From NCBI GenBank assembly GCA_041499865.1, contig JBGQLA010000002.1:1-43421 (forward strand): 43,421 bases of DNA, read 5' to 3'. Positions 3,143 through 42,796 of the stretch are shown here, piece after piece. The translations under genes and the position numbers were made by a program. Within the stretch, counting starts at the first letter, position 1. Each line of letters opens with the position of its first letter. The notes below the pieces were generated by a model that made no database searches, had not been told where the DNA came from, and saw nothing but the letters and a program-made list of their open reading frames with translations. Source of the stretch: Deltaproteobacteria bacterium (GTDB taxonomy: Bacteria; Myxococcota; Myxococcia; Myxococcales; 40CM-4-68-19).

Positions 3143-3223
3143 GTGGGCCTCCAGAAGTGGGACTTCGGCGCCCTGCTTAGCACGCGCGCGGCGCGGATCG
3201 CGCGAACCCCGCCCGCCCGGCGT

Positions 3224-12588: not shown

Positions 12589-12843
12589 GCGGTCCGTTCC
12601 GTCGGGGGCGGAGAGGGGCCGCCGGCGGATGTCTCGCCTTCCTCGTCGACCTCCACCTCTTCCCGGCGGACGGAGGCGCTCACCGGCCGCTGCTCCCGGT
12701 GGGCCTCATGAGCTCCTCACAGGTGTGGGAAAGCGTAGACATCGGGCGCCGGATTGGGCGGCATGTGCGCGCAGCGTGCTGTGCGGCGAGCGCCGGCAGG
12801 CCGCTGGCGCGAGGCGGCACGCGGCGTGTACTCTCGGCTGCCG

Positions 12844-15711
12844 ATGCGAGGAAGGCTCGAGCGCGCGCTGGAAGCCGGGCTGCGCATCCGTCCCGGAGAG
12901 CAGCGTCGCGTCGCCCTGATGGCGTTGTATGCCGCGAACGCCATCGGCGCCGTGGTGGTGGGCCGCTCGGTGCGCGACGCCCTCTACCTCTCGAACCGCC
13001 CGGCCCGTGGCCTGGCGGGCATGTACATCTGGAGCTCGCTCGCCATCGTGCTCATCTCCTGGTTGTACGCTCGCGTCGCCGACCGGGTGCCGCGCGGCTT
13101 GCTCAACGCGCTCAGCGCGCTCGGCTGCGCCGCGCTCGGGGCGGCGCTCTGGGCGACGCTCACGCTGACGGACGCGGTGTGGGTCTACGCCGCGCTGTAC
13201 ATCTTCGTCGAGGCGATGGGCTCGCTGGTGGTGATCCAGTTCTGGACGCTGGCCAGCGACGTCTTCCATGCCCGGGAGGCGAAGCGCCTGTTCGGCCTGA
13301 TCGGCGGCGGCGGCACGCTGGCCAACGTGATCTTCGGCCTGCTCGTCGGCCAGTACGCGCCGGTGGTCGGCGCGCAGAACCTCCTCTTGCTGATGGTCGC
13401 CCAGCTCGCTCTCTGCGCCCTGCTCGCCCGGGCCGGATCGCGCCTCGCCTCCGCACCTTCGGAGCGGCTTCGCTCCCGGCCGGTGCGCAAGGCGCGCGTG
13501 CTCTCGCGCGCCGGGCTTTCCTTTCTCTCCAACAAGCACCTGACCATCGTGGCGCTGATCGGCGCGGTCAGCGCCGCCGCGGTGACCATCGTCGATTTCC
13601 AGTTCAAGCTCTCCGCCGCCTCCGTCCTCGACCAGAACGCGCTCGCCGGATACTTCGGCCGCTTCTACGGCATCTGCGGCGGCGTGGCGCTGGCGGTGCA
13701 GATCTGGGTCACCGGGCGGGTGCTGGAGCGCCACGGGATCCTCGCCTCGCTGCTGCCGCTCCCGGTGGGCCTGGCCCTGGGCTCCGGCGCTTCGGCGGCC
13801 ATCGCCACCCCGGGTCTGTTCGTCAGCTCGCTGGCCAAGGGCTCGGACACGATCTTCCGCTACACCATCAACGACGCGTCCATGCAGCTCCTCTACGTGC
13901 CCGTCCCGGCGCAAGTGCGGGGGCGGGCAAAGGCGTTCATCGACGGCGTCCTCAAGCCCAGCTCGGTGGCGCTGGCGGGCGTGGTGCTGTTCTTCTACAA
14001 GCATGCGGGCGGGAGCGGCCGGCCCCTCACCGCGGCGGTGCTGCTGCTGGTGGGCGCCTGGGTGTTCTTGCTGGTGCGCGCGCGCGGCGAGTACGTGCGC
14101 AGCCTGGTGGAGTCGCTGGAGCGGCGGCACCTCGATCTCTCCGGCGCGCAGTTCGCCGGCGTCAACGACGCCACCCTCCGCGCCCTGCGCACCGCGCTCG
14201 GCGGCGACCCGGCGACCGTGCTGCACGCGCTCACGCTGGTGCAGCAGCTGGCGCAGGCGGCGGACTTCACGCCCGAGCTGCGCGGGCTGCTCCGGCACCG
14301 CGACGCCCGCGTGCGGGCGGCCGCCATCGAGCAGCTGGGAGCGCTGCGGCGGAGCGAGACGGCGGACGAGATCCGCATGCTGCTGCGAGATCCGGTCCCC
14401 GAAGTGCGGGCGGCGGCGCTGGGCGGCCTCTGCGCCGTCGAGCAGGAAGCGGCGGTGCCCACCGTGCTTCCCTTCCTCGAAGCGCGCACCGCGCCGGAGT
14501 CGGTGGTTCGCGCCGCCGCGGCGGTCGCCCTAATCCGCCACGCCGGAATCGACGGGGTGCTGGCCGCGGCGGAGCCGCTCAAGCAGCTCCTCGCCGCGGA
14601 GGATCCGCGCGACCGGGCCGCCGCAGCGGATGCGTTGGGCAACATCGGGGTGAGCGGGTTCTTCCGCCCGCTGCTCGCCTTCCTCCGGGACGAGGACCTC
14701 GGGGTGCGGAGGCGGGCGATCGCCGCCGCGGGAAAGCTGCGCGCGCCCGAGCTGATTCCCGCCCTGGTCGAGCAGTTCCAGCGCCGCGAGACGGCGCTGG
14801 AAGCGGCCAGCGCGCTCGCTGCCTTCGGTCCCGGCATCGAGCTGCCGCTCCAGGGAATCCTCCTGGACGAGGCCTCGCACGTCGACTGCCGGCGCGGCGT
14901 GGCGCTGGTGCTGCAGCGCCTCGGCACCCGCGAAGCCGCCGAGGCGCTGGTCGGCGCGCTCACCTCCCGCGATGCGTCGGTGCGCAAGTCCGCGGCGCGG
15001 GCGCTCTCGCGCCTGGCGCGGCGGCAGCGGGGTCTGCGCGTCGAGGCGGCACGGGTGGAGCGCGCGGTCCACGCGGAGCTGGCGGCGGCGCGCACCGCGC
15101 TGGGCATCTTCAAGAAGCTGGCGCTCGGCGTCCAGGGGGTCGCGCCGCGCACCCCGGCCGAGCTGCTGGCCATGGCCCTGCTCGAAGAGCGCGATGCCCG
15201 GGTGCTGCAGGCGCTGGTGCTGCTGGAGGTCCTCCTTCCCCAGGTCCGCCTCGACGTGGTGGCGGAGAACCTGCGCTCGGAGTCGCCGCCGGCGCGCGCC
15301 AACGCCATCGAGGTGCTGGACAACGCCCTTCCCGATCCCTGGAGGCGGCTGGTGATGGCCGCGCTCGACGAGACCAAGCGGCGCGGCGATCAGGTCCTGC
15401 CCGATCCGCGGCCCGCCGCCGAGCTGGCCGGCGCGCTGATCGGCGGCGAGTGCGCGCTGTGGCCGGGCGCGTGCGCGGCGCGCTGGGTGCTGGACGGCCC
15501 GGTGCCGCTCGCGCCGCTGCTGCCGCGCCTGCAGGCAGCCCTGCACGCGCCGTCGGCCCCGCTGCGCGAGGCGGCGGCCCATGCGGTCGCGCGCGCGGCG
15601 CCGGCGGAAGCGCCGCGCCTGCTCGCGCAGCTCACCGGCGATCCGGCAGCCTCGGTCAGCCGGGCCGCACGCGTGCTGCTGGGCCGCGCCGCTCCCCGGG
15701 CCTCGGCATGA
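12844..15711 (+). CDS. Fusion protein: N-terminal multi-pass transporter (TLC/ATP-ADP-translocase-like MFS) and C-terminal HEAT-repeat domain
   Basis: About 430 aa of TM helices (LMALYAANAIGAVVVGRSVRDALYL..., FWTLASDVF). These are followed by repeated HEAT-like units (RVRAAAIEQLG, EVRAAALGGL, VVRAAAAVAL, RDRAAAADALG, GVRRRAIAAAG, SVRKSAARAL). ATG at 12844 preferred over 12754. Confidence 0.75.
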   Translation: MRGRLERALEAGLRIRPGEQRRVALMALYAANAIGAVVVGRSVRDALYLSNRPARGLAGMYIWSSLAIVLISWLYARVADRVPRGLLNALSALGCAALGAALWATLTLTDAVWVYAALYIFVEAMGSLVVIQFWTLASDVFHAREAKRLFGLIGGGGTLANVIFGLLVGQYAPVVGAQNLLLLMVAQLALCALLARAGSRLASAPSERLRSRPVRKARVLSRAGLSFLSNKHLTIVALIGAVSAAAVTIVDFQFKLSAASVLDQNALAGYFGRFYGICGGVALAVQIWVTGRVLERHGILASLLPLPVGLALGSGASAAIATPGLFVSSLAKGSDTIFRYTINDASMQLLYVPVPAQVRGRAKAFIDGVLKPSSVALAGVVLFFYKHAGGSGRPLTAAVLLLVGAWVFLLVRARGEYVRSLVESLERRHLDLSGAQFAGVNDATLRALRTALGGDPATVLHALTLVQQLAQAADFTPELRGLLRHRDARVRAAAIEQLGALRRSETADEIRMLLRDPVPEVRAAALGGLCAVEQEAAVPTVLPFLEARTAPESVVRAAAAVALIRHAGIDGVLAAAEPLKQLLAAEDPRDRAAAADALGNIGVSGFFRPLLAFLRDEDLGVRRRAIAAAGKLRAPELIPALVEQFQRRETALEAASALAAFGPGIELPLQGILLDEASHVDCRRGVALVLQRLGTREAAEALVGALTSRDASVRKSAARALSRLARRQRGLRVEAARVERAVHAELAAARTALGIFKKLALGVQGVAPRTPAELLAMALLEERDARVLQALVLLEVLLPQVRLDVVAENLRSESPPARANAIEVLDNALPDPWRRLVMAALDETKRRGDQVLPDPRPAAELAGALIGGECALWPGACAARWVLDGPVPLAPLLPRLQAALHAPSAPLREAAAHAVARAAPAEAPRLLAQLTGDPAASVSRAARVLLGRAAPRASA

Positions 15712-32966: not shown

Positions 32967-32995
32967 TTGACCGCCCTGTCGTCCAAGTCTAGACA
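32967..32995 (+). promoter_or_regulatory. Sigma70-like promoter candidate for the RHH gene pair, with a GTCTAGAC palindrome over the -10
   Basis: TTGACC (32967-32972), a 17 nt spacer, then TAGACA (32990-32995), about 60 nt upstream of the ATG at 33055. The 8 bp palindrome GTCTAGAC is at 32987-32994. Confidence 0.3.
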
Positions 32996-33054
32996 GAGTG
33001 GACGGTTGTGCGCGGGCCCGCGAGCGGCGGGACGCCCCTCCGCTGGAGGACTTG

Positions 33055-33258
33055 ATGGCAGGTACGGACAAGAGGAAGCAGAGCCTCTACTTTCCCGAGG
33101 ACATGCTCCGGGAGATCCAGGAGGAGGCGAACCGGCAGGACCGCTCGCTCTCGTGGATCGTGCAGCAGGCTTGGAAGATCGCCCGCAACGAGATCATGCG
33201 CTTCCCCTCGGTGAACGACGTGATTGGCGGCGACCGGCCGACCCAGGAGCATGAGTAG
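33055..33258 (+). CDS. Ribbon-helix-helix (CopG/Arc/MetJ-like) small DNA-binding protein, paralog 1
   Basis: GGAGGA precedes the ATG. KQSLYFPEDMLREIQEEANRQDRSLSWIVQQAWKIA fits a beta-strand/helix/loop/helix RHH pattern. High third-position GC. 67 aa. Confidence 0.8.
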   Translation: MAGTDKRKQSLYFPEDMLREIQEEANRQDRSLSWIVQQAWKIARNEIMRFPSVNDVIGGDRPTQEHE

Positions 33259-33459
33259 ATGTCGGCCAATGACGCCCGCAAACAGAGCCTGTATTTCCCC
33301 GAGGACATGCTGTCGGAGATCCAGTCCCAGGCGCAGCGGCTCGACCGCTCCCTGTCCTGGGTCGTGCAGCAGGCGTGGAAGATCGCGAAGACTGAACTGC
33401 GGAAGGTCCCGTCGCCGAACGACATGCTCGACGACGATCCCGCCGCCCAGCGCGGATAG
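33259..33459 (+). CDS. Ribbon-helix-helix small DNA-binding protein, paralog 2
   Basis: ATG immediately follows the paralog 1 stop. KQSLYFPEDMLSEIQSQAQRLDRSLSWVVQQAWKIA is clearly homologous to paralog 1. 66 aa. Confidence 0.8.
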   Translation: MSANDARKQSLYFPEDMLSEIQSQAQRLDRSLSWVVQQAWKIAKTELRKVPSPNDMLDDDPAAQRG

Positions 33460-33480
33460 GACACAGATCGCAGCACCGAA

Positions 33481-33529
33481 GGGCCCGAGGCTCGGGGCGC
33501 AGGCGCGCGCTCCGGGCCCTTTTCTTTTT
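33481..33529 (+). terminator. Rho-independent terminator downstream of the RHH pair
   Basis: GGGCCCG...CGGGCCC GC-rich stem followed by TTTTCTTTTT. Confidence 0.6.
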
Positions 33530-33579
33530 CAGGACGCGCGCGGGCTCGCCGCGGAGCCACGACTTCCACCGCTCCGAAA

Positions 33580-33649
33580 CTAGCCCGGCGCGGGGTCGCG
33601 CCGGCTGTCCCGCAGCGCCGCAGGGATCTGCGCGCTGCCGTGGGACTAG
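33580..33649. repeat. Single copy of the CTAG-bounded ~66 nt GC-rich repeat
   Basis: CTAGCCCGGCGCGGGGTCGCGCCGGCTGTCCCGCAGCGCCGCAGGGATCTGCGCGCTGCCGTGGGACTAG closely matches the units at 42851 and 42918. The terminal CTAG contains the stop codon of the minus-strand lipoprotein gene. Confidence 0.85.
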
Positions 33650-36600
33650 GGCGAGACGTTCACCGCCACCTGCTGCGTCTGCAACAGGGATTTCGTCGCC
33701 GCCGGAGTGACGAGCAGCGCCGCGGGATCGAGCAGCGCGGGCTGCAGCTCGTTCGGCACGCGCCAGACCTGCTTCGCGAGCGAAGTGACGAAGACCGCGT
33801 AGCGCCCCGCGACCAACGCGACAGGCGCCGGCGGTAGGCCCGGGTCGAGCAGGTTTACCTTCGCCGACGCGTTGCTCGCCAGGACGTTCACAGGTGTCGT
33901 AACGACGTAGGGGAGCCCCGCGGTGCACGTGCCCGCCGGGAACTGGCTGGTGTCGAGCGCCGCCGCAATCACCGTCGCCTTGCCCTGGCCGTCGATCTCG
34001 GGCGTGAGGCCAGCGGCGTCCGCCACCTTGATCAGCTCGACGGAGAGCGTGCTGGCGATGGGCTTGCCCGAACCGTCGCACCCGAGCACGAACGCTCCGG
34101 CGGAATCCGGATGCAGCGGCGCGACTCCTGCCCCAAGGATTGCGGCAGGCTTGATGCGGATCGACGCGCTCGGTGCGCCGCCGAATGCGACGGCAACGTC
34201 CGCCGTGAGGGCGTTGCCGCCGCCGTCGACGAGTTGGAAGCTCGGGCGCTGCGGAAGCGCAGTCGCGGCCGTCAGGCTGGCCGCGGCCGCGCCGGTGCCG
34301 ACGTGCACGGTTGCGGGTGCCGCGACGAGGTTGCCGGAGCCGGGAGCGAGGGCGAGAAATGCCGGAGATGGCGCGAAATCGCCGCGCGAGTCCGCCAGCG
34401 CCATCACCAGGTAGTCGCCGGTGGGGAGGTTCGGGAGCAGATAGCTCACCGCTCCGCCCGCGAACTCCGCGCCGAGATGGAAATCCGCCGAGAGCGGAGA
34501 GCCGAAAGGCGGCAACGCATTCGCGGCGTAAGCGAAGACATATGCCGCCGCCGGCGGCGTGCCGGCGACCGCAAGCGACCCGGAGATCGCGCCGTCGGAC
34601 GCCGGATGCGCCCGCGGCCCGACCTGGAACGCGCCGCTCTGCGACTGCGTCTGCACGGTGCCGGGAGCGCAGCTGGACGCGCCGGCGGGGCAGACGCTGC
34701 CCGGGTCCAGCGCCGCCGAGCCGGCCTCGTTCGGGATCTGCCATGCCTGCCCGGCCTGCGAGAGCAGGACGATCGCGTAGGCGCCGGGCTGCAGCGCGAT
34801 CCGCTGCGGCGGCGCGCCGGGCGTCGAAGCATCGAAGAGCGCCGGACGCACCACGATGGTCAGCTTGTCCGTCACCACCGGCGCGGCGTTCCCCCCGGGC
34901 TGCGGCTGCAGCGCGGGGAGGAACGGCGTCGGGTCCACCGCGGCCGGAATCACCTGCGTGCGCGTGGTGCGCAGGTCGGGCGACACGTACTGCGTCAGCC
35001 CGGCGGGGTCCCCGGGATCGAGCCGGACGAGGAAGACGCGCGGCCAGACGTCGGGCAGCCCGTCATGATCCGCGTCGACAGCCGCGGCGCCGGCATCGCG
35101 CACCAGCTGCACGGCGAAATGCGGCGCGCTCGCGCGCCCGGCCGGAAATGCCAGCGCCTTCGCGCGCACGCTGAAGCGCACGGGCGTCACCTGGTCGACC
35201 GGCATCTGCGCCGGCGTGGCCGGATCGATCTCGAACGCGGGCGGATCCGCCGGCGCCCGCGTCGCCAGCGTCAGGTCGGCGGTGACGTTTCCGCTCACCG
35301 CGATCGAGGCCGGGCGGCCCTGGCCGTCGGCCGCGGCGCCGAGCAGGTCGCCCGCGGTCGCGGTCCGGAGGAGATTGAGGGGCGAGAAGTTGCCGTCCAC
35401 GTCATCGAGCGCCTGCACCCGGTAGTTGCCCTGGGGGAGCCCGTCGATGCGGTAGGCGGCCGTGAACCCCTGCGCATCGGGCACGGCGGCGCTGGCGGGG
35501 AGGATCTGCACGCGCACGGGCAGGGCCGCGCCGAGCGGAGGCGGAGGGTTGAACGGATCGTCCCGGTACGCCTGGACGATGATGTTGCCGCTCTTCACCG
35601 ACGGATCCGCGCGCCAGGCGACCGTGCCGCTCACGCTGTTCGCCGGCAGCGCACCCTGCGGCGCGATGGTCACGCTCTGCGCCTGCGAGGCCGCGAAGTA
35701 CGGCGTGCCTTCGTTGGCCGCATCCCCCAGATCGTTCGGCAGCGTCCACACCTGCCCGCTGCGCTCGACCACCACCACCTGGTACTTGCCCGCGGGGATC
35801 TTCGCCAGCGGCTTGAGATCCGCCGCGGCCACCGCGAACGGTTCGACCAGGACGTCGAGGACATCGCGGGCGATCGGCGGCGCGCCGGCGCCCAGGTTCA
35901 CCAGCGCGGGAAGCACCGCGGTGGCGATGGCGCGGCAGGGGACGATGGCGGCGGACTGCGCGTTGACGGGCGCCGGGTTCCCCTGCCCGTCGACGCCGGA
36001 GCGCTGGCGGAGAAAGACGCGGGGAAACACGTCGTCCAGCCCGTCCGCGAGGCTGCTGCGCCGGTTGCCCTGCGCGTCGCGATCCAGCTCGAGCGCGAAG
36101 TGGGCGTTGGCGAAGCTCGCGCTCCGCGCCGACAGGCGCGCCGTCCGCAGCTGCAGCCGGACCGGCTGGTCGATGTTCTGGTCGATCGTCTGCGACCCGC
36201 CCGAAAGCTCGAACGAAGGCGGGTCGTAGACCAGCGTCTGCGTGAGCGCGACGTTGATCCCGCTCACCACCTGCCCGGCCCCGACGGAGATCGCGAGGAA
36301 GCGCGGTTGGCCGCCGGGCCCGAGGTCGCCGTGCCCTCCCACCGGGTCTCCGGCGCGCGGCTGCTGGGCGTAGTCGAAGAGCGGGGCGAACTCGTGCGCG
36401 GCCGTGGCATCGATGAACGCCCGGATCTGGTAGCTGCGCCCGGACGGCACCTGGGTGAACGTGAACCCGGCGGAGAACGGCCCGATGCCCGCAGCCGGCG
36501 GGTTCCCGAAGAGCGTCGCCTGCGGGATGTGCGCGATCGCAGTCGCAGAGGTTCCGTTGCCGTCGGGCGGCGGCAGCGCCGCGGTGTCGAACAGGAAGAG

Positions 36601-36774
36601 GATGGCGTCGCCGCGCGCCGCTCCGCTGTAGACCAGGCTTCCCTGGATCACTCCCGGCGGCGGACAGAGACCGCCGTCGCAGGAGAACTGGTCCAGCCCG
36701 GGCGCGAGGCCCGGCGTCTCGCAAGCGACGGTGCAGGTGGCGAGCGTGATGAGGATGCCGACGATGCGGTTCAT
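33646..36774 (-). CDS. Large (1042 aa) lipoprotein made of three repeated ~330-350 aa modules
   Basis: Lipobox LATCTVAC. Each module starts with a carboxypeptidase-regulatory-like segment. Each ends in a conserved motif (PAGKYQVVVVERSGQVWTLPNDLG / QPGAYAIVLLSQAGQAWQIPNEAG / VAGRYAVFVTSLAKQVWRVPNELQ). The start overlaps the upstream stop (TGATG). Confidence 0.8.
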   Translation of the reverse strand: MNRIVGILITLATCTVACETPGLAPGLDQFSCDGGLCPPPGVIQGSLVYSGAARGDAILFLFDTAALPPPDGNGTSATAIAHIPQATLFGNPPAAGIGPFSAGFTFTQVPSGRSYQIRAFIDATAAHEFAPLFDYAQQPRAGDPVGGHGDLGPGGQPRFLAISVGAGQVVSGINVALTQTLVYDPPSFELSGGSQTIDQNIDQPVRLQLRTARLSARSASFANAHFALELDRDAQGNRRSSLADGLDDVFPRVFLRQRSGVDGQGNPAPVNAQSAAIVPCRAIATAVLPALVNLGAGAPPIARDVLDVLVEPFAVAAADLKPLAKIPAGKYQVVVVERSGQVWTLPNDLGDAANEGTPYFAASQAQSVTIAPQGALPANSVSGTVAWRADPSVKSGNIIVQAYRDDPFNPPPPLGAALPVRVQILPASAAVPDAQGFTAAYRIDGLPQGNYRVQALDDVDGNFSPLNLLRTATAGDLLGAAADGQGRPASIAVSGNVTADLTLATRAPADPPAFEIDPATPAQMPVDQVTPVRFSVRAKALAFPAGRASAPHFAVQLVRDAGAAAVDADHDGLPDVWPRVFLVRLDPGDPAGLTQYVSPDLRTTRTQVIPAAVDPTPFLPALQPQPGGNAAPVVTDKLTIVVRPALFDASTPGAPPQRIALQPGAYAIVLLSQAGQAWQIPNEAGSAALDPGSVCPAGASSCAPGTVQTQSQSGAFQVGPRAHPASDGAISGSLAVAGTPPAAAYVFAYAANALPPFGSPLSADFHLGAEFAGGAVSYLLPNLPTGDYLVMALADSRGDFAPSPAFLALAPGSGNLVAAPATVHVGTGAAAASLTAATALPQRPSFQLVDGGGNALTADVAVAFGGAPSASIRIKPAAILGAGVAPLHPDSAGAFVLGCDGSGKPIASTLSVELIKVADAAGLTPEIDGQGKATVIAAALDTSQFPAGTCTAGLPYVVTTPVNVLASNASAKVNLLDPGLPPAPVALVAGRYAVFVTSLAKQVWRVPNELQPALLDPAALLVTPAATKSLLQTQQVAVNVSP

Positions 36775-39458
36775 CAGAACGACCCCGAGGCGGTGAAGAG
36801 GACGCGCCGGCCGATCTGGTTGCCGAACGGGTGCTCGCGGTGCCCGTCGCCGAGCAGGTTGTAGAAGGCGATGCCGGTCTCCAGCTTGTCCTTCACCCAG
36901 CGGTATCCGACGCGCCCGTTCACCAGGGTGTAGGCAGGCACTTCATACGGCGTGAACACCACGCCTCCTGCGCTGGCGATGTCGAACGACTTCTCGAACC
37001 AGGTGACCGCCGACACGAAGTGCACGTCGAGGCCGAGATCGAAGTTCGCCCGCGTCCGCCAGGTCGCATTGAGGTTGATCTTGTGCTGCGCGGTGTTGGC
37101 CAGGGTGGCGGAAGCCTGCGTCGGTGCGCTGGCATCGTCGGTGCAGCCTCCCGAGGCGGTCACGCGGCAGGCGAACATCTTCTCGTACGAGTAGTTGAGG
37201 CCGAGGTCCACGCCGTCCGCCGGCGACCATCTTCCGCCCAGCTCCGCTCCGACGCCGAAGTAGCTGCCCGCTTCGTTCTCGAACCCGGTGTACCCGGCCA
37301 CGTACTGGTGCGTGGCCAAATCGACCGCCTGGGACGGGTCGGCGGGCGGCCGCAGCGCGCCGTCGGTGATCAGGTTCTGCACCCGCTCCGCGTACACCAC
37401 CACGTCGGGCTGGAAGCTTCCCATCCGGCCGCGGTAGCCGATCTCCGCCTGCAGCATCTGCTCCGGCCGCAGCGACTGGCTTCCCTGGAACCGGACGCCG
37501 AGCGCCGGCTGGCTGGGGATCGGCGCGAACAGGTCGATGTACGACTCGAGGAAGGTGGGGGCGCGGAAGGCGGAACCGAGGGTGAAGCGCACCACCTGCT
37601 CGGGTTTCACCTCGTAGAGCAGCGTGCCGCGCGGAGACTGCACCAGGCCGCCGGAGGTCACGCCCTGCGAGTACAGCAGCGGATGGCGGTCCACGCGGTA
37701 GGAGAGGACCAGCGAGAGCTTGCGGGAGATCTCCCACTCCTCCTGGAGGAAGGCGTTGAAGTGGTGCTCCTGCCAGGGGCTGCCGTCGGGGCGGGTGGCG
37801 AGGTAACCCCACTGCACGCTCTTGAACCGGTAGCCGGCGCCGATGCTCAGATGGTGCGCGCCGGCGGCCTTGTAGTCGAAGCCCGTCTGCGCGGAGAGGT
37901 CGAACACGTCGCTGCGCACGCTGCTCCTCAGGGAGATCACTCCGTCCGGCCAGTACTCCGGGCCGGTGGTCATCCGCAGCGCGTTCCAGAACGCCTTCAC
38001 CTTGGTGGGGCCGCTGTCCATCTCCAGACGAGCGAATCCGGACTGGCCGGTGGCGCCGAAGGTGCGCAGCGCTCCGAGCGGCACCACCTCCGTGGCGAAA
38101 TTGTCGAATCCTCCGCCCGCCAGGACCTGCGCCTTTCCCAGATCGTAGGTCGCGGAAAGGTCTGCGCGCTGCACCTCGCGGCTGCGGTTCGGCTGCGGGA
38201 ACTGCGCCGGCAGGTCCACGCGGTCGCTGGCGAAGTCGCGCGTCCACTTGTCGGCCCGGTCGTAGGCGAAGGTGGTGCGGTAGGTGAGCTTCCCGGTCTT
38301 GCCGCCGGTGCTGATGCCTCCCTGGACGGTGTCGTGGTTGCCGCCCTGGACGAACGCCCGCGCTCCCGAGATCTCCTCGCCGGAGCGGGTGATGATGTTC
38401 ACCACGCCCGCGAACGCGTTTGCGCCGTACAGCGCGGAACCCGGCCCGCGGATCACCTCGATGCGCGCGATGTCCGGCACCGCCACGTCGACCAGCGGCC
38501 AGAAGGTGCCGCCGAGGAAGTCCTGGTACACCGAGCGCCCGTCGACCAGCACCAGCACCTTGTTCGAGACCCGGCGGTTGAATCCGCGGATGGAGATGTT
38601 GGTGTCGCTCGGGTTCATCTCCGCGACGTCGATCCCCGGCACCCGCCGGAGGATCTCCGGGATGGTGGTCGCGCCGCTCATCCGGATCTCGTCCTCCCCG
38701 ATCACGGTGAGGGAGGCCGGCGTCTTCGCCTCCGAGCTGGAGCGGGCGGAGGCGGTGACCACCTGCTCCTCGAAGATGTCCTCGGTGCTCGCCTCGTGCG
38801 CTCCCGACAGCTCGGCGGCGATCTCGCGCGCCGTGGCGCGGGTGCGCGCGGAGATGGTCTCCGCCTCGAACATCTCCTCCTCGGCGCGGGCCGGCGCGGC
38901 CGCGGGCTTCTTCGCCACCGCCGGCTTCGCCGCCGGCGGCAAGGCAGCTGGAGCAGGTGCTGGCTGCTGCGCCTGGTGCTGCGCGATCAGCGCCTGGAGC
39001 TGGGCGATCAGCTTGTCGACGTCGACCGGCTGCTGCGGCGGCGTCGCTTTGGCCTCGACCGCTGGCGGCGCTGGCGCAGGGCCCGGCGGCGGCGCGCCGA
39101 TCGCCGCCTGCAGGCGCTGCATGACGCTGAGCACCTGGTCCTTGTCCACCGGGTCGGTGGCGACGTACTGGCGGAAGTAGCTGAGCGCCTCCTGGATGTT
39201 CCCGAGGTCCACGTACGCCTTGGCGATGTCGTAGAGCACGTCGGGATGGGGCTTGATGGCGTACGCCTGCTTCAGCTCCGCGATGCCCTGCTCCATCCGT
39301 CCCGCGGCGATCAGCGACATGCCTTCGCGGAAGTGCCGCTTGGCGTCCGCGCGCGCGTCGGCCATCGCCGCGGGCCCGATCAGGGCCGCGAGCAGGAACG
39401 CCGCGCAGATCCTTCCCCGCGCGCCTGCAAGGCGGCGCGCGCCTCTCCAGATGGTCAT
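36774..39458 (-). CDS. TonB-dependent outer-membrane receptor with N-terminal TPR, Pro/Ala linker and coiled-coil extension
   Basis: Signal peptide ...AAFLLAALIGPAAMA. TPR-like KRHFREGMSLIAAGRMEQGIAELKQAY...YDIAKAYVDLGNIQEALSYFRQYV. Plug region VVTASARS...SLTVIGEDEIRMSGATTIPEILRRVPGIDV and NISIRGF. Long beta-barrel ending ...FTASGSF. Confidence 0.88.
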   Translation of the reverse strand: MTIWRGARRLAGARGRICAAFLLAALIGPAAMADARADAKRHFREGMSLIAAGRMEQGIAELKQAYAIKPHPDVLYDIAKAYVDLGNIQEALSYFRQYVATDPVDKDQVLSVMQRLQAAIGAPPPGPAPAPPAVEAKATPPQQPVDVDKLIAQLQALIAQHQAQQPAPAPAALPPAAKPAVAKKPAAAPARAEEEMFEAETISARTRATAREIAAELSGAHEASTEDIFEEQVVTASARSSSEAKTPASLTVIGEDEIRMSGATTIPEILRRVPGIDVAEMNPSDTNISIRGFNRRVSNKVLVLVDGRSVYQDFLGGTFWPLVDVAVPDIARIEVIRGPGSALYGANAFAGVVNIITRSGEEISGARAFVQGGNHDTVQGGISTGGKTGKLTYRTTFAYDRADKWTRDFASDRVDLPAQFPQPNRSREVQRADLSATYDLGKAQVLAGGGFDNFATEVVPLGALRTFGATGQSGFARLEMDSGPTKVKAFWNALRMTTGPEYWPDGVISLRSSVRSDVFDLSAQTGFDYKAAGAHHLSIGAGYRFKSVQWGYLATRPDGSPWQEHHFNAFLQEEWEISRKLSLVLSYRVDRHPLLYSQGVTSGGLVQSPRGTLLYEVKPEQVVRFTLGSAFRAPTFLESYIDLFAPIPSQPALGVRFQGSQSLRPEQMLQAEIGYRGRMGSFQPDVVVYAERVQNLITDGALRPPADPSQAVDLATHQYVAGYTGFENEAGSYFGVGAELGGRWSPADGVDLGLNYSYEKMFACRVTASGGCTDDASAPTQASATLANTAQHKINLNATWRTRANFDLGLDVHFVSAVTWFEKSFDIASAGGVVFTPYEVPAYTLVNGRVGYRWVKDKLETGIAFYNLLGDGHREHPFGNQIGRRVLFTASGSF

Positions 39459-39475
39459 TGGGCTACTCACGGTTG

Positions 39476-41143
39476 TCAGTACGGGTCTTCCTTGTAGCCG
39501 ACGGATCTCTTGCCGGGCCGCGACTCGTACGGGGCCGCCTTCGCGTCCTTCATCACGATGTTCAGCGACATGCGCTCGCCGCCGACCTTCCGCTTGATCC
39601 AGGCCGCCCGGTACCCGTGATGGCGGAGCGCGAGCTGGAGTGGCGCGCCGGAAGGCACGCGCAGATCGAACGGCGTGGTCCCGAGGAAGCGGTCCGCGGC
39701 GTCGCGCACCTCGGCGCCGGCGGGCGTGCTGGTCAGCGTCACCAGCGTGGTGCCCGCCGTCGCGGCCTGGTACGCGGTCCGTGCCGGCTCGGGCGCAGGC
39801 GCCGGCTCGGGCTGCGCCGGGGTCGCGGCGACGACGGGAATGGGTGCCGGCGGGGGCGGATTCTGCGGCGCGGGCGCGACCGCCAGACGCGCCGGCGCGC
39901 GGAGCACGATCGCGGCGGCGGCGATCCCCGCGAGGAGGATGAGGCCGGAGGGGAGCAGGATGCGCAGCGCCGAGGTGGGCCTGGTTGGGAGCGCCGCTTC
40001 GGTGGGCGGCGGCGAAGTCGCCGGCCGCGCAACCGGGTACTCGTCGACCAGCGCGTCGGCCGGCGGCGGCGGCGGCCGGGGGATGCCGGTGACGCCGTAC
40101 GCGGGGGTCGGCCGCGCCACGGTGAGCGGCTGGCTCGGCGTGCGCAGGGCGGGCTGCGGCGTGGGCGGCGTCTGGCCGGCGAGCGCCGCGTTCTGCTGCA
40201 TCGGCGGGAGCGAGCTGGGCGTGGGAATTCCCGTGAGCCGCGCGCGCGCCGCCTTCAGCTGCACCAGCAGCTCGTCCATCGACTGGAACCGGTCCTCGCG
40301 CGCCTTCGACATGCACCGGAGCACGATCGCCTCGAGGTCTGGCGCGATCTGCAGATCCGGCCGCAGCTCGCTGGGCGGAACCGGCGCGTCGTGCAGGTGC
40401 TTGAGGATGATGTCGACCGGCGCCCCGGCGGTGAACGGCACCCGCGCGGTGAGCATGTGGTAGAGGAGCACGCCCAGCGAGTAGATGTCGCAGCGCTGGT
40501 CCGGGCCCTGGTTGCGCGCCTGCTCCGGCGCGATGTAGTGCGGCGAGCCCATGAAGGTGCCGGCGTTGGTGATGTCGCCCTCGGCGTTGTCGCCGTGGAA
40601 GAACTTCACCAGGCCGAAGTCCAGCACCTTCACGAAGTCGTGGTCGTCGTGCTGGACCAGCAGCATCACGTTCGCGGGCTTAAGGTCGCGGTGGATGATG
40701 CCCAGGGCGTGCGCCTCGCGCAGCGAGCGGCAGATCTGCTGGGCGATGTGGATCACGCGCTCCTGGGCGAGGGGGCCCTCCGCCTGCATCACCTGCGAGA
40801 GCGTGCGCCCGGCGAGGTACTCCATGGCGATGTAGAGAACGCCGTCGTCGGTGCGGCCGTAATCGTACAGCGTGATCGTGTTCGGGTGCGTCAGCCGGGC
40901 GGTGACGCTCGCCTCGAGGAAGAAGCGCTTGTAGAAGTTCGGGTCCCGATCGTGCCCGGCGCCGAGGACCTTGAGGCCGACCACCCGATCCAGGGGCGCC
41001 TGCATCGCCTTGTAGACGCGGCCCATTCCGCCGTGCCCGATGACCTCGACGATCCGGTAGCGATCGTTGAGGACGCGGCCGAGCAACGGATCCGCGTCTC
41101 CTCCCGTGGCCGGGAGGTCAGGGGCAGGCTGCGCACCAGGCAT
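39476..41143 (-). CDS. Membrane Hanks-type Ser/Thr protein kinase with extracytoplasmic PEGA domain
   Basis: GHGGMGRVYKA, HRDLKPANVML, DFGLV and GSPHYIAPE. TM segment ILLPSGLILLAGIAAAAIVL. C-terminal PEGA-like TSTPAGAEV...LGTTPF...HHGY. ATG at 41143 preferred over the TTG at 41236. Confidence 0.85.
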   Translation of the reverse strand: MPGAQPAPDLPATGGDADPLLGRVLNDRYRIVEVIGHGGMGRVYKAMQAPLDRVVGLKVLGAGHDRDPNFYKRFFLEASVTARLTHPNTITLYDYGRTDDGVLYIAMEYLAGRTLSQVMQAEGPLAQERVIHIAQQICRSLREAHALGIIHRDLKPANVMLLVQHDDHDFVKVLDFGLVKFFHGDNAEGDITNAGTFMGSPHYIAPEQARNQGPDQRCDIYSLGVLLYHMLTARVPFTAGAPVDIILKHLHDAPVPPSELRPDLQIAPDLEAIVLRCMSKAREDRFQSMDELLVQLKAARARLTGIPTPSSLPPMQQNAALAGQTPPTPQPALRTPSQPLTVARPTPAYGVTGIPRPPPPPADALVDEYPVARPATSPPPTEAALPTRPTSALRILLPSGLILLAGIAAAAIVLRAPARLAVAPAPQNPPPPAPIPVVAATPAQPEPAPAPEPARTAYQAATAGTTLVTLTSTPAGAEVRDAADRFLGTTPFDLRVPSGAPLQLALRHHGYRAAWIKRKVGGERMSLNIVMKDAKAAPYESRPGKRSVGYKEDPY

Positions 41144-41168
41144 CGAAATGGCACTCCAGTCGGCAACA

Positions 41169-41194
41169 GGCGCGGAACCCCCCGGTTCCGCGCC
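41169..41194. promoter_or_regulatory. Perfect 11 bp GC hairpin/palindrome in the divergent intergenic region
   Basis: GGCGCGGAACC-CCCC-GGTTCCGCGCC, 26 nt upstream of the kinase operon start and about 65 nt upstream of the carboxyltransferase gene. Confidence 0.35.
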
Positions 41195-41260
41195 CTTGCA
41201 AAAAGCTACTGCGTTGTTCCAGCCTGGGTCAAACAATCAAGGATCTGATACGGAAGCGCC

Positions 41261-42796
41261 ATGTCGATGCGGAAGAAAGTGGAAGAGTTGGAGCAGCGTC
41301 GCGCGCAGGCGAAGAAGATGGGCGGAGAGGCCCGGCTCGCCCGGCAGAGGGAGCGCGGGAAGTTGGACGCGCGCGCCCGCCTGGACTTGCTCCTCGATCC
41401 CACTACCTTCAATGAGATTGGGCTTTTGGCCACGCACCTGGGCAAGCCGGACTCTCAAACGCCCGCCGACGGCGTCGTCTGCGGCACGGGACTGATCGAC
41501 GGTCGTCCGGTGTGTGTGGCTTCCTACGACTTCACCGTACACGGCGGCAGCATCGGGCCGGTCGGCGAGCGCAAGGTGACGCGGCTGCGGGAGCTGGCGC
41601 TCCGCGAGCGCATTCCGATGATCTGGCTGGTGGATTCCGCCGGCGCCCGGCTCTCGGCGGACCCGGAGGAGGCGGCCTGGATCAGCTCGTTCGCGGACAC
41701 CGGATATCTGTTCCGCGAGCAGGTGGTGATGAGCGGCGTGGTGCCACAGGTGGCGGCCATGGTCGGCCCAGGCGCCGCCGGAACGGCCTACATCCCGGGC
41801 CTGGCGGACTTCGTGCCGATGGTGCGCGGGACCTCGTCGATCGCCATCGGCGGGCCATATCTGGTGAAGAGCATCGTCGGCGAGGACGTGACCGAGGAGG
41901 CGCTCGGGGGATCGAAGGTCCACACCGAGGTGAGCGGCGTCGCCGACCTGGAGGTGGCGAGCGACGCGGAGTGCCTGGCCGCGGTGCGCGAGTACCTCTC
42001 CTACTTCCCCTCCCGCTGCGGAGAGAAGCCGCCGCGGCAGCCGTCCTCGGACCCGAAGGACCGGCGCGAGGAGAAGCTGCTGGACATCGTCCCCGAGAAC
42101 CCGCGGCAGGCTTACGACGTGCACAAGGTGATCGCCGCGGTGGTCGACGGCGGCAGGCTCTTCGAGATCAAGCCGCGCTGGGCGCGCAACATCGTCACCG
42201 GGCTGGCGCGCATCGACGGGTGGTCGGTCGGGGTGGTGGCGAACAACCCGATGCAGGCGGGCGGCGTGCTGGACGTGAACGCGGCCGACAAGGCGGCGCG
42301 CTTCGTCAATCTCTGCGACGCCTTCGGGATCCCGCTGGTGTTCCTGCAGGACGTGCCGGGCTTCATGGTCGGGTCGAAGGTCGAGCAGCAGGGGATCATC
42401 CGGCACGGCGCGAAGATGCTCTACGCCATCGCCTCGGCGACGGTGCCCAAGCTCACGGTGGTGCTGCGCAAGGCGTACGGCGCCGGGTACTACGTGATGA
42501 ACGGGCGGGCGTACGAGCCGGATCTGCTGGTGGCGTGGCCGGGCGCGGAGATCAGCGTGATGGGCGCGGAAGGCATGGTGGCGATCGCCGCCAACAAGCA
42601 GACCGACGAGGTGAAGAAGCAGCTCGCGGAGGCGATCCGGCCGCACATCGACATCCAGAAGACCGCCGCGCTGGGCTACGTGGACGACGTGATCGATCCC
42701 CGCGAGACGCGCCCGCTGCTCGCGCATTATCTCAAGATCTGCGAAGGGAAGAAGGTCGAGCGCCCCTGGCGCAAGCGGGAGATCTCGCCCGTCTAG
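41261..42796 (+). CDS. Acyl-CoA carboxylase carboxyltransferase (beta) subunit, propionyl-/methylmalonyl-CoA family
   Basis: 511 aa. GKLDARARLDLLLD, a two-lobed crotonase-like carboxyltransferase with GGSIGPVGERK, and AYGAGYYVM. Confidence 0.9.
   Translation: MSMRKKVEELEQRRAQAKKMGGEARLARQRERGKLDARARLDLLLDPTTFNEIGLLATHLGKPDSQTPADGVVCGTGLIDGRPVCVASYDFTVHGGSIGPVGERKVTRLRELALRERIPMIWLVDSAGARLSADPEEAAWISSFADTGYLFREQVVMSGVVPQVAAMVGPGAAGTAYIPGLADFVPMVRGTSSIAIGGPYLVKSIVGEDVTEEALGGSKVHTEVSGVADLEVASDAECLAAVREYLSYFPSRCGEKPPRQPSSDPKDRREEKLLDIVPENPRQAYDVHKVIAAVVDGGRLFEIKPRWARNIVTGLARIDGWSVGVVANNPMQAGGVLDVNAADKAARFVNLCDAFGIPLVFLQDVPGFMVGSKVEQQGIIRHGAKMLYAIASATVPKLTVVLRKAYGAGYYVMNGRAYEPDLLVAWPGAEISVMGAEGMVAIAANKQTDEVKKQLAEAIRPHIDIQKTAALGYVDDVIDPRETRPLLAHYLKICEGKKVERPWRKREISPV

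What the first reader, a model, noticed from the sequence alone, without database searches (positions are those of the whole stretch)
33646..41143. Translationally coupled operon: PEGA-ectodomain Hanks kinase, TPR-extended TonB-dependent receptor and giant repeat lipoprotein
Three minus-strand genes are packed with an 18 nt gap and a 1 nt overlap (TGATG). The kinase has a cytoplasmic catalytic domain, one TM helix and a periplasmic PEGA domain. The TonB-dependent receptor has a periplasm-facing N-terminal TPR/coiled-coil extension in the position where classical TonB-dependent transducers carry the signalling domain that contacts an anti-sigma factor. The third product is a 1042 aa lipoprotein that could be a surface or periplasmic partner. 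This suggests, as inference only, an outer-membrane sensing or uptake module wired to Ser/Thr phosphorylation instead of an ECF sigma/anti-sigma pair.
Basis: inference. Interest (0 to 1): 0.68.

Follow-up and report, generated by a model that had tools for sequence, protein, structure and literature searches.

The report
Outer-membrane receptor coupled to a kinase
Three tightly packed genes (an inner-membrane Ser/Thr kinase, a TonB-dependent outer-membrane receptor with a TPR extension, and a beta-sandwich lipoprotein) form a cassette conserved in dozens of uncultured myxobacterial genomes. It looks like an undescribed way of wiring an outer-membrane receptor to protein phosphorylation.

Summary
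Three minus-strand genes, kinase 39476-41143, TPR-extended TonB-dependent receptor (TBDR) 36774-39458 and lipoprotein 33646-36774, are separated by 17 nt (not 18) and a 1-nt TGATG overlap.

- 67 of 73 informative lipoprotein-anchored loci have the TBDR directly upstream.
- All 56 TBDRs with a complete N-terminus carry the TPR extension.
- 39 of 46 loci with enough upstream sequence have the kinase in the same order and strand.
- Flanking genes are not conserved.

The interpretation needs one correction. The PEGA domain is absent from about half the family. What is conserved is the extreme C-terminus of the kinase's periplasmic tail: GYK[DE][DN]PY here, GYMxLP[DE]DF in the PEGA-less clade. This is a typical ligand for a TPR groove.

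Two related genomes with the same flanks have lost the plug, barrel and lipoprotein. They keep the kinase with its tail and a stand-alone secreted TPR protein (TPR core dN/dS 0.27).

The 1042-aa lipoprotein is a triplicated ~340-aa two-domain module; homologues have one to four copies.

No interaction, ligand or kinase substrate is shown. I found no published description. I class it as a new variant of TonB-dependent cell-surface signalling.

The parts
39476..41143 (-). Receptor-type Hanks Ser/Thr kinase, 555 aa; first gene of the unit
   Evidence: Pkinase E = 3e-47. Catalytic motifs intact. Orthologue present upstream of the TPR-TBDR in 39 of 46 informative loci.
40283..41059 (-). Cytoplasmic kinase catalytic domain (aa 29-287)
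   Evidence: Pfam PF00069. GHGGMG aa 36-41, HRDLKPAN aa 151-158, DFG aa 175-177, APE aa 205-207.
39902..39961 (-). Single transmembrane helix of the kinase (aa 395-414)
   Evidence: Hydrophobic stretch ILLPSGLILLAGIAAAAIVL. An equivalent helix is present in all orthologues examined.
39548..39748 (-). Periplasmic PEGA-like domain (aa 466-532)
   Evidence: Window protein is sub-threshold: 15 bits against 20.8. Orthologues score 24-33 bits. The domain is absent from the class-B kinases.
39479..39508 (-). Conserved extreme C-terminal tail motif RSVGYKEDPY-COOH; proposed ligand of the TPR domain
   Evidence: Mean pairwise identity is 0.80 in the last 7 residues, against 0.16 in the preceding 30. 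The pattern occurs at a C-terminus only in these kinase ORFs: 23 class A plus 21 class B among 4,067 ORFs.
39459..39475 (-). 17-nt spacer between the kinase stop and the TBDR ATG (5 nt if the GTG at 39470 is the start)
   Evidence: In orthologous loci the spacing ranges from a 4-nt overlap to a few tens of nt.
36774..39458 (-). TonB-dependent receptor with N-terminal TPR extension, 894 aa
   Evidence: Plug E = 8e-25, barrel E = 2e-29, TPR_19 E = 9e-9. Closest solved relatives by plug sequence are CirA, BtuB, FecA and heme receptors.
39360..39458 (-). Signal peptide of the TBDR (aa 1-33, ending AMA|DA)
   Evidence: Read from the sequence. The A-x-A|D boundary is conserved in orthologues.
39096..39359 (-). 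TPR core (aa 34-121): two TPR repeats plus a capping helix, with signature DAKRHF...KPHP..LYDIAKAY
   Evidence: AF2 pLDDT above 90 over five helices. Superposes on consensus TPR 1na3, rmsd 1.8 A over 82 columns. Residues are invariant across both clades.
38979..39020 (-). Conserved amphipathic helix in the flexible linker (VDKLIAQLQALIAQ, aa 147-160)
   Evidence: Conserved in clade A and, as (E)LARLQAIAAELEAL, in clade B. Predicted as an isolated helix. Role unknown.
38745..38882 (-). Two tandem TonB-box-like motifs: EEEMFEAETISA (aa 193-204) and EDIFEEQVVTASA (aa 226-238). The second is the canonical TonB box just before the plug
   Evidence: Resembles the BtuB, FepA and FhuA boxes (xTxVVTA), recalled from established knowledge.
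38403..38729 (-). Plug domain (aa 244-352)
   Evidence: PF07715.
36855..38270 (-). Beta-barrel domain (aa 397-868); the protein ends in the aromatic residue F894
   Evidence: PF00593.
33646..36774 (-). Lipoprotein of 1042 aa made of three ~340-aa modules. Its ATG overlaps the TBDR stop (TGATG)
   Evidence: There are 88 homologues, all unannotated. AF2 pLDDT 88.5 and pTM 0.83; all-beta.
36721..36732 (-). Lipobox TVAC with acylated Cys18
   Evidence: Cys18 is invariant in alignment A1 and at least 90% conserved in A2.
35659..36720 (-). Lipoprotein module 1 (aa 19-372), ending GKYQVVVVERSGQVWTLPN
   Evidence: Module alignment; invariant G/Y/GQ.W..PN columns.
34657..35658 (-). Lipoprotein module 2 (aa 373-706), with a DADHDGLPD calcium-loop-like motif
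33649..34656 (-). Lipoprotein module 3 (aa 707-1042)
41144..41260 (.). 117-bp divergent intergenic region shared with the carboxyltransferase gene; presumed promoter region of the unit
   Evidence: No sigma-70 consensus match was found, which is uninformative for this phylum.

Best explanation
The three genes form one conserved operon-like cassette that builds a module spanning the cell envelope.

Shown from sequence:
- The outer-membrane TonB-dependent receptor carries a small TPR domain (two repeats plus a cap) on a ~100-residue flexible tether. The domain lies N-terminal to the TonB box, so it is in the periplasm.
- The inner-membrane Hanks kinase projects a periplasmic tail. It has a Pro/Ala-rich spacer, plus a PEGA domain in this clade, and ends in a short conserved peptide, ...GYKEDPY-COOH.
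- The lipoprotein is an all-beta protein of three ~340-aa modules, translationally coupled to the receptor gene.

Inferred:
- The TPR groove binds that C-terminal peptide, linking receptor and kinase physically. This would mirror the way the STN domain of FecA-type transducers contacts the anti-sigma factor.
- Ligand binding at the receptor/lipoprotein, together with TonB-driven unfolding around the TonB box, changes this docking. That alters kinase clustering or activity and so the phosphorylation of cytoplasmic targets.
- The lipoprotein is the stoichiometric partner of the receptor, by analogy with TBDT-lipoprotein pairs such as SusC/SusD or TbpA/TbpB.
For: 1. Synteny. From 78 lipoprotein-anchored loci, 67 of 73 informative loci have the TBDR directly upstream on the same strand. 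All 56 TBDRs with a complete N-terminus have the TPR-type extension. 39 of 46 loci with at least 1.7 kb upstream have the kinase in the same order. This holds even where lipoprotein identity is only 25-30%. TBDR-anchored look-ups gave 3 of 4 with a kinase and 4 of 4 with a lipoprotein-module gene.
2. Only these three genes are conserved; the flanks are not.
3. Spacing stays tight. By my start-picking heuristic the TBDR stop and lipoprotein start lie within -46 to +41 nt in 56 of 67 loci, mostly within -13 to +14. The kinase stop abuts or overlaps the TBDR start.
4. The kinase tail motif is conserved at the extreme C-terminus in two classes (23 A, 21 B), while the preceding linker is not (identity 0.80 against 0.16). 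The pattern is found nowhere else among 4,067 ORFs of the loci.
5. The PEGA domain is missing in class B, so the tail peptide is the only shared periplasmic element.
6. The TPR core is a canonical peptide-binding-type TPR fold. Its Foldseek matches include TPR-Hsp90 C-terminal-peptide complexes 3kd7, 4cgu and 1qz2.
7. Natural deletion variants L079/L080 and L081 share the window's flanks. They retain the kinase with PEGA and the ..GYK[DE]DPY tail, plus a secreted stand-alone TPR protein ending at the TonB box. They lack the plug, barrel and lipoprotein. TPR core dN/dS is 0.27 between the two variants. This argues that the tail's partner is not the lipoprotein or the barrel.
8. The most divergent TPR cores go with aberrant tails: L074 ..GFLDWD, L075 ..GYGPSPRSP, and L084 with PRP in place of PHP and tail ..SGYREW.
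Against: - No interaction was computed or measured.
- TPR/tail co-variation is fully confounded with phylogeny, because tail class equals clade.
- Five loci have the TPR-TBDR and lipoprotein without an adjacent kinase: L033, L038, L053, L069 and L077. L083 also has none within the ~1.1 kb of contig upstream of its TBDR.
- In L041 the kinase lies 2.9 kb away.
- In L072 the tail-bearing protein has no recognisable kinase domain.
- TPR domains can bind many things other than C-terminal peptides.
- The deletion variants could be recent, and part of the measured purifying selection predates the deletion.
- All instances are metagenome-assembled genomes. There are no expression data, and no ligand or kinase substrate is identifiable.
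Confidence: 0.55

Rival explanations
1. The cassette is a functional unit, but the kinase does not touch the receptor's TPR. The kinase tail or PEGA domain senses something else in the periplasm, such as peptidoglycan, another envelope protein, or a ligand imported by the receptor. The kinase then regulates cytoplasmic targets, possibly including expression of the uptake genes. The TPR binds a different partner, such as TonB, the lipoprotein or peptidoglycan.
For: - Conserved synteny demands only a shared function, not contact.
- PEGA domains and TPRs are generic interaction modules.
- Some loci lack an adjacent kinase.
Against: - Class-B kinases have no folded ectodomain at all, only a low-complexity spacer and a 9-residue terminal motif. 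Such a tail cannot bind a small ligand by itself and needs a protein partner.
- The only periplasmic protein module that co-occurs with the tail in every variant, including the barrel-less and lipoprotein-less ones, is the TPR.
Confidence: 0.25
2. The receptor is not an importer or sensor but an exporter or surface-display device for the lipoprotein. Precedents are the M. xanthus TBDT Oar, which is required for PopC secretion, and Slam-type lipoprotein translocation. The kinase monitors or controls this envelope process.
For: - Precedent for TBDT-dependent protein secretion in Myxococcus (PMC6434023).
- The lipoprotein gene is translationally coupled to the TBDR gene in nearly all loci.
- The lipoprotein is a rigid multi-domain beta-sandwich array, like surface proteins and pilins.
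Against: - Oar-type TBDTs carry a CarboxypepD_reg N-terminal extension, not a TPR.
- Nothing in the sequences indicates surface exposure.
- The variants that kept the kinase and TPR after losing the barrel and lipoprotein show that the signalling pair does not need them.
Confidence: 0.12
3. The adjacency is incidental. The kinase is an unrelated neighbour of an ordinary nutrient receptor and lipoprotein pair.
For: - Myxobacterial genomes encode very many Hanks kinases and TBDRs. The window itself has a second kinase at 1008-3176.
Against: - Same order, strand and tight spacing in 39 of 46 informative loci with unrelated flanks.
- The tail motif is specific to these kinases.
- The kinase-TPR pair is retained after deletion of the rest.
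Confidence: 0.03

Closest known systems
TonB-dependent transducers of cell-surface signalling (FecA-FecR-FecI, FpvA-FpvR, PupB-PupR)
   Same: - Outer-membrane TBDT with an extra periplasmic domain N-terminal to the TonB box.
- Gene adjacency with a single-pass inner-membrane regulator whose periplasmic C-terminal part would reach the extension.
- Presumed ligand- and TonB-dependent signalling across the envelope.
   Different: - The extension is a TPR, not an STN domain (PF07660 not detected).
- The partner is a Hanks Ser/Thr kinase, not an anti-sigma factor.
- There is no ECF sigma gene in the cassette.
- A cognate lipoprotein is part of the unit.
- A survey of 34,893 TBDTs tallied five N-terminal architectures (none, CarboxypepD_reg, STN and AMIN combinations) and no TPR class (PMC6434023).
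TBDT plus cognate lipoprotein pairs (SusC/SusD, TbpA/TbpB, HmuR/HmuY)
   Same: - The lipoprotein gene lies immediately next to, and is translationally coupled with, the TBDT gene.
- The pair is conserved over large evolutionary distances.
   Different: - The lipoprotein fold is a string of beta-sandwich domains with no specific structural relative (Foldseek TM-scores 0.26 or less). It is not SusD-like (alpha-helical) or TbpB-like.
- Module copy number varies from one to four.
- Ligand and cellular location are unknown.
TPR domains that clamp C-terminal peptides (Hop, FKBP52 or Tah1 with Hsp70/90 -EEVD; PEX5 with PTS1)
   Same: - A small TPR array, and a conserved acidic/aromatic motif at the very C-terminus of the partner.
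- The modelled TPR core superposes on such modules: 3kd7, 4cgu and 1qz2 are among the matches.
   Different: - Those systems are eukaryotic and cytosolic; here both parts are periplasmic.
- Binding is inferred only.
- The motif (GYKDDPY or GYMxLPDDF) is unrelated to EEVD or SKL.
PahS-PahP-PahK/PahR of Cycloclasticus (PMC10570129)
   Same: An outer-membrane receptor wired to an inner-membrane kinase rather than to an ECF sigma/anti-sigma pair.
   Different: - There the link is a soluble substrate-binding protein that shuttles the ligand to a histidine kinase.
- Here the link would be a direct tether between a TBDT extension and a Ser/Thr kinase tail.
Receptor-type Hanks kinases such as PknB/Stk1 (PASTA ectodomains)
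   Same: Cytoplasmic Hanks kinase domain, one TM helix and an extracytoplasmic C-terminal part. The best NCBIfam match is to the kinase domain of the PknB_PASTA family: 326 bits, below its 450-bit cut-off.
   Different: - No PASTA domains.
- The ectodomain is a single PEGA domain or nothing at all, followed by a terminal docking-type motif.
TonB itself (architecture only)
   Same: An inner-membrane anchor, a Pro-rich periplasm-spanning spacer and a C-terminal element that engages the N-terminal region of a TBDT. Class-B kinases have 100-200 residues of Pro/Ala/Glu-rich spacer.
   Different: - No TonB C-terminal domain.
- No ExbB/ExbD genes were identified in the cassette or its annotated neighbours.
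- The cytoplasmic part is a kinase.

Membership tests
TonB-dependent receptor/transporter | Plug domain (PF07715) | tested here: met
   E = 7.9e-25, 87.9 bits against a cut-off of 23.9; aa 244-352.
TonB-dependent receptor/transporter | 22-strand barrel domain (PF00593) with a C-terminal aromatic residue | tested here: met
   E = 2.2e-29, 104 bits against a cut-off of 27; aa 397-868. The protein ends ...TASGSF.
TonB-dependent receptor/transporter | TonB box just N-terminal to the plug | tested here: met
   EEQVVTAS at aa ~230-237, conserved as (E/R)(Q/V)VVTAS in all orthologues. Binding to TonB cannot be tested here.
TonB-dependent transducer (FecA-type cell-surface signalling) | STN signalling domain (PF07660) N-terminal to the TonB box | tested here: not met
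   Pfam scan at E <= 0.01 gives only TPR families, Plug and barrel. The position is occupied by a TPR domain.
TonB-dependent transducer (FecA-type cell-surface signalling) | Adjacent ECF sigma factor and anti-sigma factor genes | tested here: not met
   - The annotated neighbours are a carboxyltransferase, BKACE, tilS, ftsH and folP.
- No other gene is conserved next to the cassette across loci.
Hanks-type (eukaryotic-like) Ser/Thr protein kinase | Pkinase domain with Gly-rich loop, catalytic HRDLKxxN, DFG and APE motifs | tested here: met
   PF00069, 161.5 bits. All four motifs present. Enzymatic activity not testable here.
PknB/Stk1 PASTA kinase (NF033483) | Score above the family cut-off, and PASTA ectodomains | tested here: not met
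   325.8 bits against a cut-off of 450. Only the kinase domain aligns (profile positions 2-271 of 563), and there is no PASTA hit.
PEGA domain (PF08308) | Score above the Pfam gathering threshold | tested here: inconclusive
   - Window ectodomain: 15.0 bits against 20.8, covering profile positions 3-66 of 71.
- Five of seven orthologous ectodomains pass, at 24-33 bits.
Bacterial lipoprotein | Signal peptide with lipobox and conserved Cys | tested here: met
   ITLATCTVAC|ETPG. Cys18 is invariant in A1 and at least 90% conserved in A2. Acylation and final location are not testable here.
DUF2141 (PF09912) / CarboxypepD_reg-like | Score above the Pfam threshold | tested here: not met
   - Window protein: 17.4 bits against 24.4, for a 33-residue stretch.
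- Some homologues carry precomputed PF09912 or PF13620 hits. The first domain of each module is therefore probably of that beta-sandwich type.
TOL_0244 family TonB-dependent receptor (NF053590) | Score above the NCBIfam cut-off | tested here: not met
   218.7 bits against a cut-off of 645.
TPR-peptide clamp | Binding of the partner's C-terminal peptide in the concave groove | not testable with these tools
   Only the fold and the conserved partner motif could be shown.

The most novel reading that the evidence does not exclude
This would be a previously unrecognised class of trans-envelope signalling. A TonB-dependent outer-membrane receptor would talk directly to a eukaryotic-like Ser/Thr kinase. 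Its tethered periplasmic TPR domain would clamp the kinase's conserved C-terminal peptide. TonB-driven mechanical unfolding at the receptor would then be converted into cytoplasmic protein phosphorylation, without any sigma/anti-sigma pair or two-component system.
Probability: 0.4. Interest if true: 0.85.

Novelty: new variant of a known kind. Interest (0 to 1): 0.72.

Why it matters
Known cell-surface signalling by TonB-dependent receptors ends in an ECF sigma/anti-sigma pair. How the many receptor-type Hanks kinases of myxobacteria receive signals is largely unknown, because most have no recognisable sensor domain.

This cassette offers a concrete, testable answer for one family. The 'sensor' would be an outer-membrane receptor, and the kinase needs only a spacer and a docking peptide. 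The predictions are simple:
- a ~90-residue TPR domain binds a 7-10-residue peptide;
- two peptide classes provide specificity controls;
- natural barrel-less variants already exist.

If it holds, the repertoire of bacterial trans-envelope signalling is broader than thought, and orphan kinases could be paired with partners through terminal motifs.

Tried and rejected
- Lipoprotein function. Pfam and NCBIfam give nothing above threshold. Foldseek with the confident full-length model gives only generic strings of Ig/MG-type beta-sandwich domains (alpha-2-macroglobulins, pilins), with TM-scores of 0.26 or less. No function could be assigned.
- TBDR substrate. PDB and NCBIfam matches are generic (CirA, BtuB, FecA, heme receptors) and rest mainly on the plug. 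No substrate could be inferred.
- Word-indexed protein search with the N-terminal extension. It returned mostly short fragments of close relatives and no cultured organism.
- Exhaustive representative search with the extension. It mixes true family members with generic multi-TPR proteins, so it gives only a rough family size: dozens of 50%-identity clusters of 817-956 aa with a single N-terminal match.
- TPR/tail co-variation. Class-specific TPR positions exist (for example K26 to L, Y29 to Q, K32 to Y), but tail class equals clade. I rejected this as evidence, apart from the anecdotal aberrant pairs.
- Promoter and terminator scans. Uninformative: 0 promoter-like sites, and 3 terminator-like sites against 3.1 expected.
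- Literature. Six searches ran and found no description of a TBDR-Hanks-kinase cassette. A search for the myxobacterial TPR 'Mkap' kinase-associated proteins that I recalled led nowhere, so they are not used.
- Non-myxobacterial labels on some MAG records (Enterobacterales, Rickettsiales, Alphaproteobacteria). I did not take these as evidence of wide distribution, because all loci have 58-75% GC.
- A chimeric TPR-linker-tail structure prediction. I considered it but did not run it.

Full report
**1. The observation**

The window has ~71% GC, so long spurious ORFs abound. Third-position GC singles out the real genes.

On the minus strand, three genes follow one another: 39476..41143, 36774..39458 and 33646..36774.
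- The kinase stop (TGA at 39476-39478) and the receptor ATG (39458) are 17 nt apart, not 18. An in-frame GTG at 39470 would make the gap 5 nt.
- The receptor stop and the lipoprotein ATG overlap by one base (TGATG).

The unit is bounded on both sides.
- Upstream of the kinase lies a divergent plus-strand carboxyltransferase, 41261..42796.
- Downstream of the lipoprotein lie convergent small plus-strand ORFs with a strong hairpin at 33489-33518, then tilS, ftsH and folP.
- The unit is therefore exactly three genes, with no terminator-like site between them.

**2. The three products**

*Kinase (555 aa)*
- Pkinase domain, aa 29-287, E = 3e-47, with all catalytic motifs.
- A Pro-rich juxtamembrane region, then one TM helix (aa 395-414).
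- A Pro/Ala-rich periplasmic spacer.
- A PEGA-like domain (aa 466-532). It is sub-threshold in the window protein (15 bits against 20.8), but five of seven orthologues tested are above threshold.
- The C-terminus is ...RSVGYKEDPY.

*Receptor (894 aa)*
- Signal peptide, aa 1-33.
- A TPR core, aa 34-121. AF2 models it as five helices with pLDDT above 90. It superposes on consensus TPR 1na3 at 1.8 A.
- A ~100-residue flexible region containing a conserved amphipathic helix (aa 147-160) and two TonB-box-like motifs. The second, EEQVVTAS, is the canonical TonB box.
- Plug and barrel.
- No STN domain is detected.
- By sequence, the core is a generic TBDR related to CirA, BtuB, FecA and heme receptors.

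*Lipoprotein (1042 aa)*
- Lipobox with a conserved Cys18.
- Three divergent ~340-aa modules. Each has two beta-sandwich domains and ends in G.Y.V......GQ.W..PN. The second and third modules carry a D.D..G calcium-loop-like motif.
- The AF2 model is confident: pLDDT 88.5, pTM 0.83.
- Foldseek finds only generic Ig/MG-domain arrays.

**3.

I built a profile of the lipoprotein family from 88 homologues, all unannotated and from metagenomes. With it I fetched 78 loci from species-representative genomes. tblastn with the window's kinase domain, kinase C-terminus, TPR, TBDR core and lipoprotein gave these counts:
- 67 loci have the TBDR directly upstream on the same strand.
- 5 loci are uninformative because the contig ends there.
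- 6 informative loci lack the TBDR.
- All 56 TBDRs with a complete N-terminus have the TPR-type extension: 54 by tblastn, plus L075 and L078 by inspection.
- Of 46 loci with at least 1.7 kb upstream of the TBDR, 39 have the kinase. Two more (L013, L072) have a decayed or truncated version that still carries the tail. Five have none.

The pattern holds where lipoprotein identity is only 25-30% and TBDR identity 32-38%.

All-against-all ORF comparisons show that only these three genes are conserved. Flanks are shared only by close relatives.

Spacing stays tight. By my start-picking heuristic, the TBDR stop and lipoprotein start lie within -46 to +41 nt in 56 of 67 loci, mostly within -13 to +14. 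The kinase stop abuts or overlaps the TBDR start.

Anchoring on the TBDR instead of the lipoprotein gave a kinase in 3 of 4 look-ups and a lipoprotein-module gene in 4 of 4.

All instances are MAGs, labelled mostly Myxococcales, Myxococcota or Deltaproteobacteria. Some carry other labels, but every locus has 58-75% GC, so I do not trust those labels. No cultured species appeared.

**4. What is conserved in the kinase's periplasmic part**

Orthologous kinases fall into two classes.
- Class A (23 loci, including the window): TM helix, spacer, PEGA domain, and a C-terminus [GD][YF]K[DE][DNT]PY.
- Class B (22 loci): TM helix, then 100-200 residues of Pro/Ala/Glu-rich low-complexity spacer, no PEGA domain, and a C-terminus GY[ML]x[LIVM]P[DE][DE]F.

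The last seven residues are 0.80 identical (class A) and 0.73 (class B) on average. The preceding 30 residues are 0.16 and 0.26 identical.

Among 4,067 ORFs in six frames of all loci (1.09 million residues), the two terminal patterns occur at a C-terminus only in these kinase ORFs: 23 class A and 21 class B by pattern.

The shared periplasmic element is a short motif at the very C-terminus. This is the classical kind of ligand for a TPR groove. The Foldseek matches of the TPR model include TPR-Hsp90 C-terminal-peptide complexes.

The TPR core is itself strongly conserved across both classes (..A.R.F..G....A...PHP....[ND]I...Y.....A..Y.....P).

Class-specific TPR residues exist, but tail class equals clade, so I do not count this as co-variation. 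It is only anecdotal that the most aberrant TPR cores go with aberrant tails: L074, L075 and L084.

**5. A natural experiment**

Two look-ups of short 'TPR proteins' led to three contigs, representing two variants: L079 and its counterpart L080, and L081.
- They are collinear with the window on both sides: carboxyltransferase and kinase upstream; the two small ORFs, tilS and ftsH downstream.
- The ~5 kb encoding the plug, barrel and lipoprotein is absent.
- What remains is the kinase, with PEGA domain and ..R[RK]S[VI]GYK[DE]DPY tail. It is followed at once by a secreted stand-alone TPR protein of 226 or 192 aa that ends at the TonB box.
- Between the two variants, the TPR core is 75% identical with dN/dS 0.27. 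The kinase catalytic domain gives 0.34 for the same pair.

This shows that the TPR extension is an autonomous module that stays with the kinase. It also argues that the tail's partner is not the lipoprotein or the barrel.

Caveat: part of the measured selection predates the deletion, and these variants come from a single family-level lineage.

**6. Mechanism proposed**

*Shown*
- The gene order, its conservation and the tight spacing.
- The topology implied by the signal peptide, the TM helix and the position of the TonB box. It places the TPR and the kinase tail in the same compartment, each on a long flexible tether.
- The conserved terminal motif.
- The canonical TPR fold.

*Inferred*
- The TPR clamps the kinase's C-terminal peptide.
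- Ligand binding at the receptor/lipoprotein, and TonB-dependent unfolding next to the tether, alter this contact.
- Kinase activity changes as a result.

The direction of signalling, the ligand, the substrates and the location of the lipoprotein are unknown.

I put 0.55 on the core claim, a functional trans-envelope module with kinase-tail/TPR contact. The rivals are:
- a functional unit without direct contact (0.25);
- a lipoprotein export or display device monitored by the kinase, by analogy with Oar/PopC (PMC6434023) (0.12);
- incidental adjacency (0.03).

**7. Comparison with known systems**

It works like FecA-type cell-surface signalling: a TBDT with a periplasmic extension upstream of the TonB box, plus a single-pass inner-membrane partner. 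It fails both family-defining features tested, the STN domain and the ECF sigma/anti-sigma genes, so it is not a member.

A published tally of 34,893 TBDTs found five N-terminal architectures built from CarboxypepD_reg, STN and AMIN domains or none, with no TPR class (PMC6434023).

The Cycloclasticus PahS-PahP-PahK system (PMC10570129) is another outer-membrane receptor wired to a kinase. It works through a soluble binding protein and a histidine kinase.

The TBDR/lipoprotein pairing resembles SusC/SusD or TbpA/TbpB in gene organisation only.

Six literature searches found no description of this cassette. That is absence of evidence within the searchable library only.

**8. Verdict**

- The cassette is real and widely conserved, and the TPR is in the transducer position.
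- The conserved contact candidate is the kinase's terminal peptide, not the PEGA domain.
- The 'giant' lipoprotein is a copy-number variant of a small module: 1, 2, 3 or 4 copies.

I rate it a new variant of a known kind, with interest 0.72.

Noticed in passing
L079:5417-7681 (also L080) and L081:1888-4169; equivalent to window 33646-38740 being absent: Related genomes with the same flanking genes have lost the plug, barrel and lipoprotein. They keep the kinase with its tail and a stand-alone secreted TPR protein (226 or 192 aa) that ends at the TonB box.
   Followed up: yes
window 38745-38882: There are two tandem TonB-box-like motifs, EEMFEAETISA and EDIFEEQVVTASA, in clade-A receptors. Clade B has only one (AYERVVVTAS). 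Whether the first has any function is unknown.
   Followed up: partly
L017, L019, L025, L033 (N-terminal extension of the TBDR): A sub-clade has the TPR core duplicated in tandem, with two copies of the ..RPH..(L/R)FN(I/M/L)(A/G)RAY unit. This gives extensions of 330-410 aa.
   Followed up: partly
window 33646-36774 and homologues P0052-P0085, L025-L078: Lipoprotein module copy number varies between lineages: about 350-430 aa (1 module), ~705 aa (2), ~975-1050 aa (3) and ~1300-1445 aa (4).
   Followed up: partly
L072:5486-6760: The protein upstream of the TBDR has a TM helix, a Pro-rich spacer and the class-B tail (PEGYLPIPDDF), but only a vestige of the kinase N-lobe and no Pfam kinase hit. 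An extra 256-aa ORF lies between it and the TBDR.
   Followed up: partly
L013:6172-13068: The cassette looks decayed or the assembly is noisy. The ORF carrying the PEGA domain and tail begins with a glutamine-amidotransferase fragment instead of a kinase domain. The TBDR and lipoprotein matches are split.
   Followed up: partly
L020, L027, L028, L076 (lipoprotein match at 10001 onward): Lipoprotein-family paralogues occur with 10 kb of upstream sequence and no TBDR or kinase homologue. The module therefore also exists outside the cassette.
   Followed up: no
window 32971-33583 (+) with hairpin 33489-33518: Two small overlapping plus-strand ORFs without Pfam hits are conserved in L079 and L081 (79-94% identity). 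They are convergent with the lipoprotein gene, and a 12-bp GC-rich hairpin followed by a T-run sits near their 3' end.
   Followed up: partly
window 1008-3176 (-): A second Hanks-type kinase ORF (up to 722 aa; Pkinase at aa 228-471 of the stop-to-stop frame), unrelated to the cassette.
   Followed up: no
window 9626-12511 (+): A 961-aa ORF combines PD40 (WD40-like beta-propeller) repeats with an Omp85-superfamily domain. This looks like an unusual architecture for an Omp85 protein.
   Followed up: no
window 12739-15711 (+): A 990-aa ORF has an MFS/TLC-type transporter region at the N-terminus and HEAT/Armadillo repeats at the C-terminus.
   Followed up: no
L039, L041, L042, L054, L055, L057, L060, L071, L072, L027: MAG records labelled Enterobacterales, Enterobacteriaceae or Rickettsiales carry the cassette on contigs with 64-73% GC. 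The taxonomic labels are probably wrong.
   Followed up: partly
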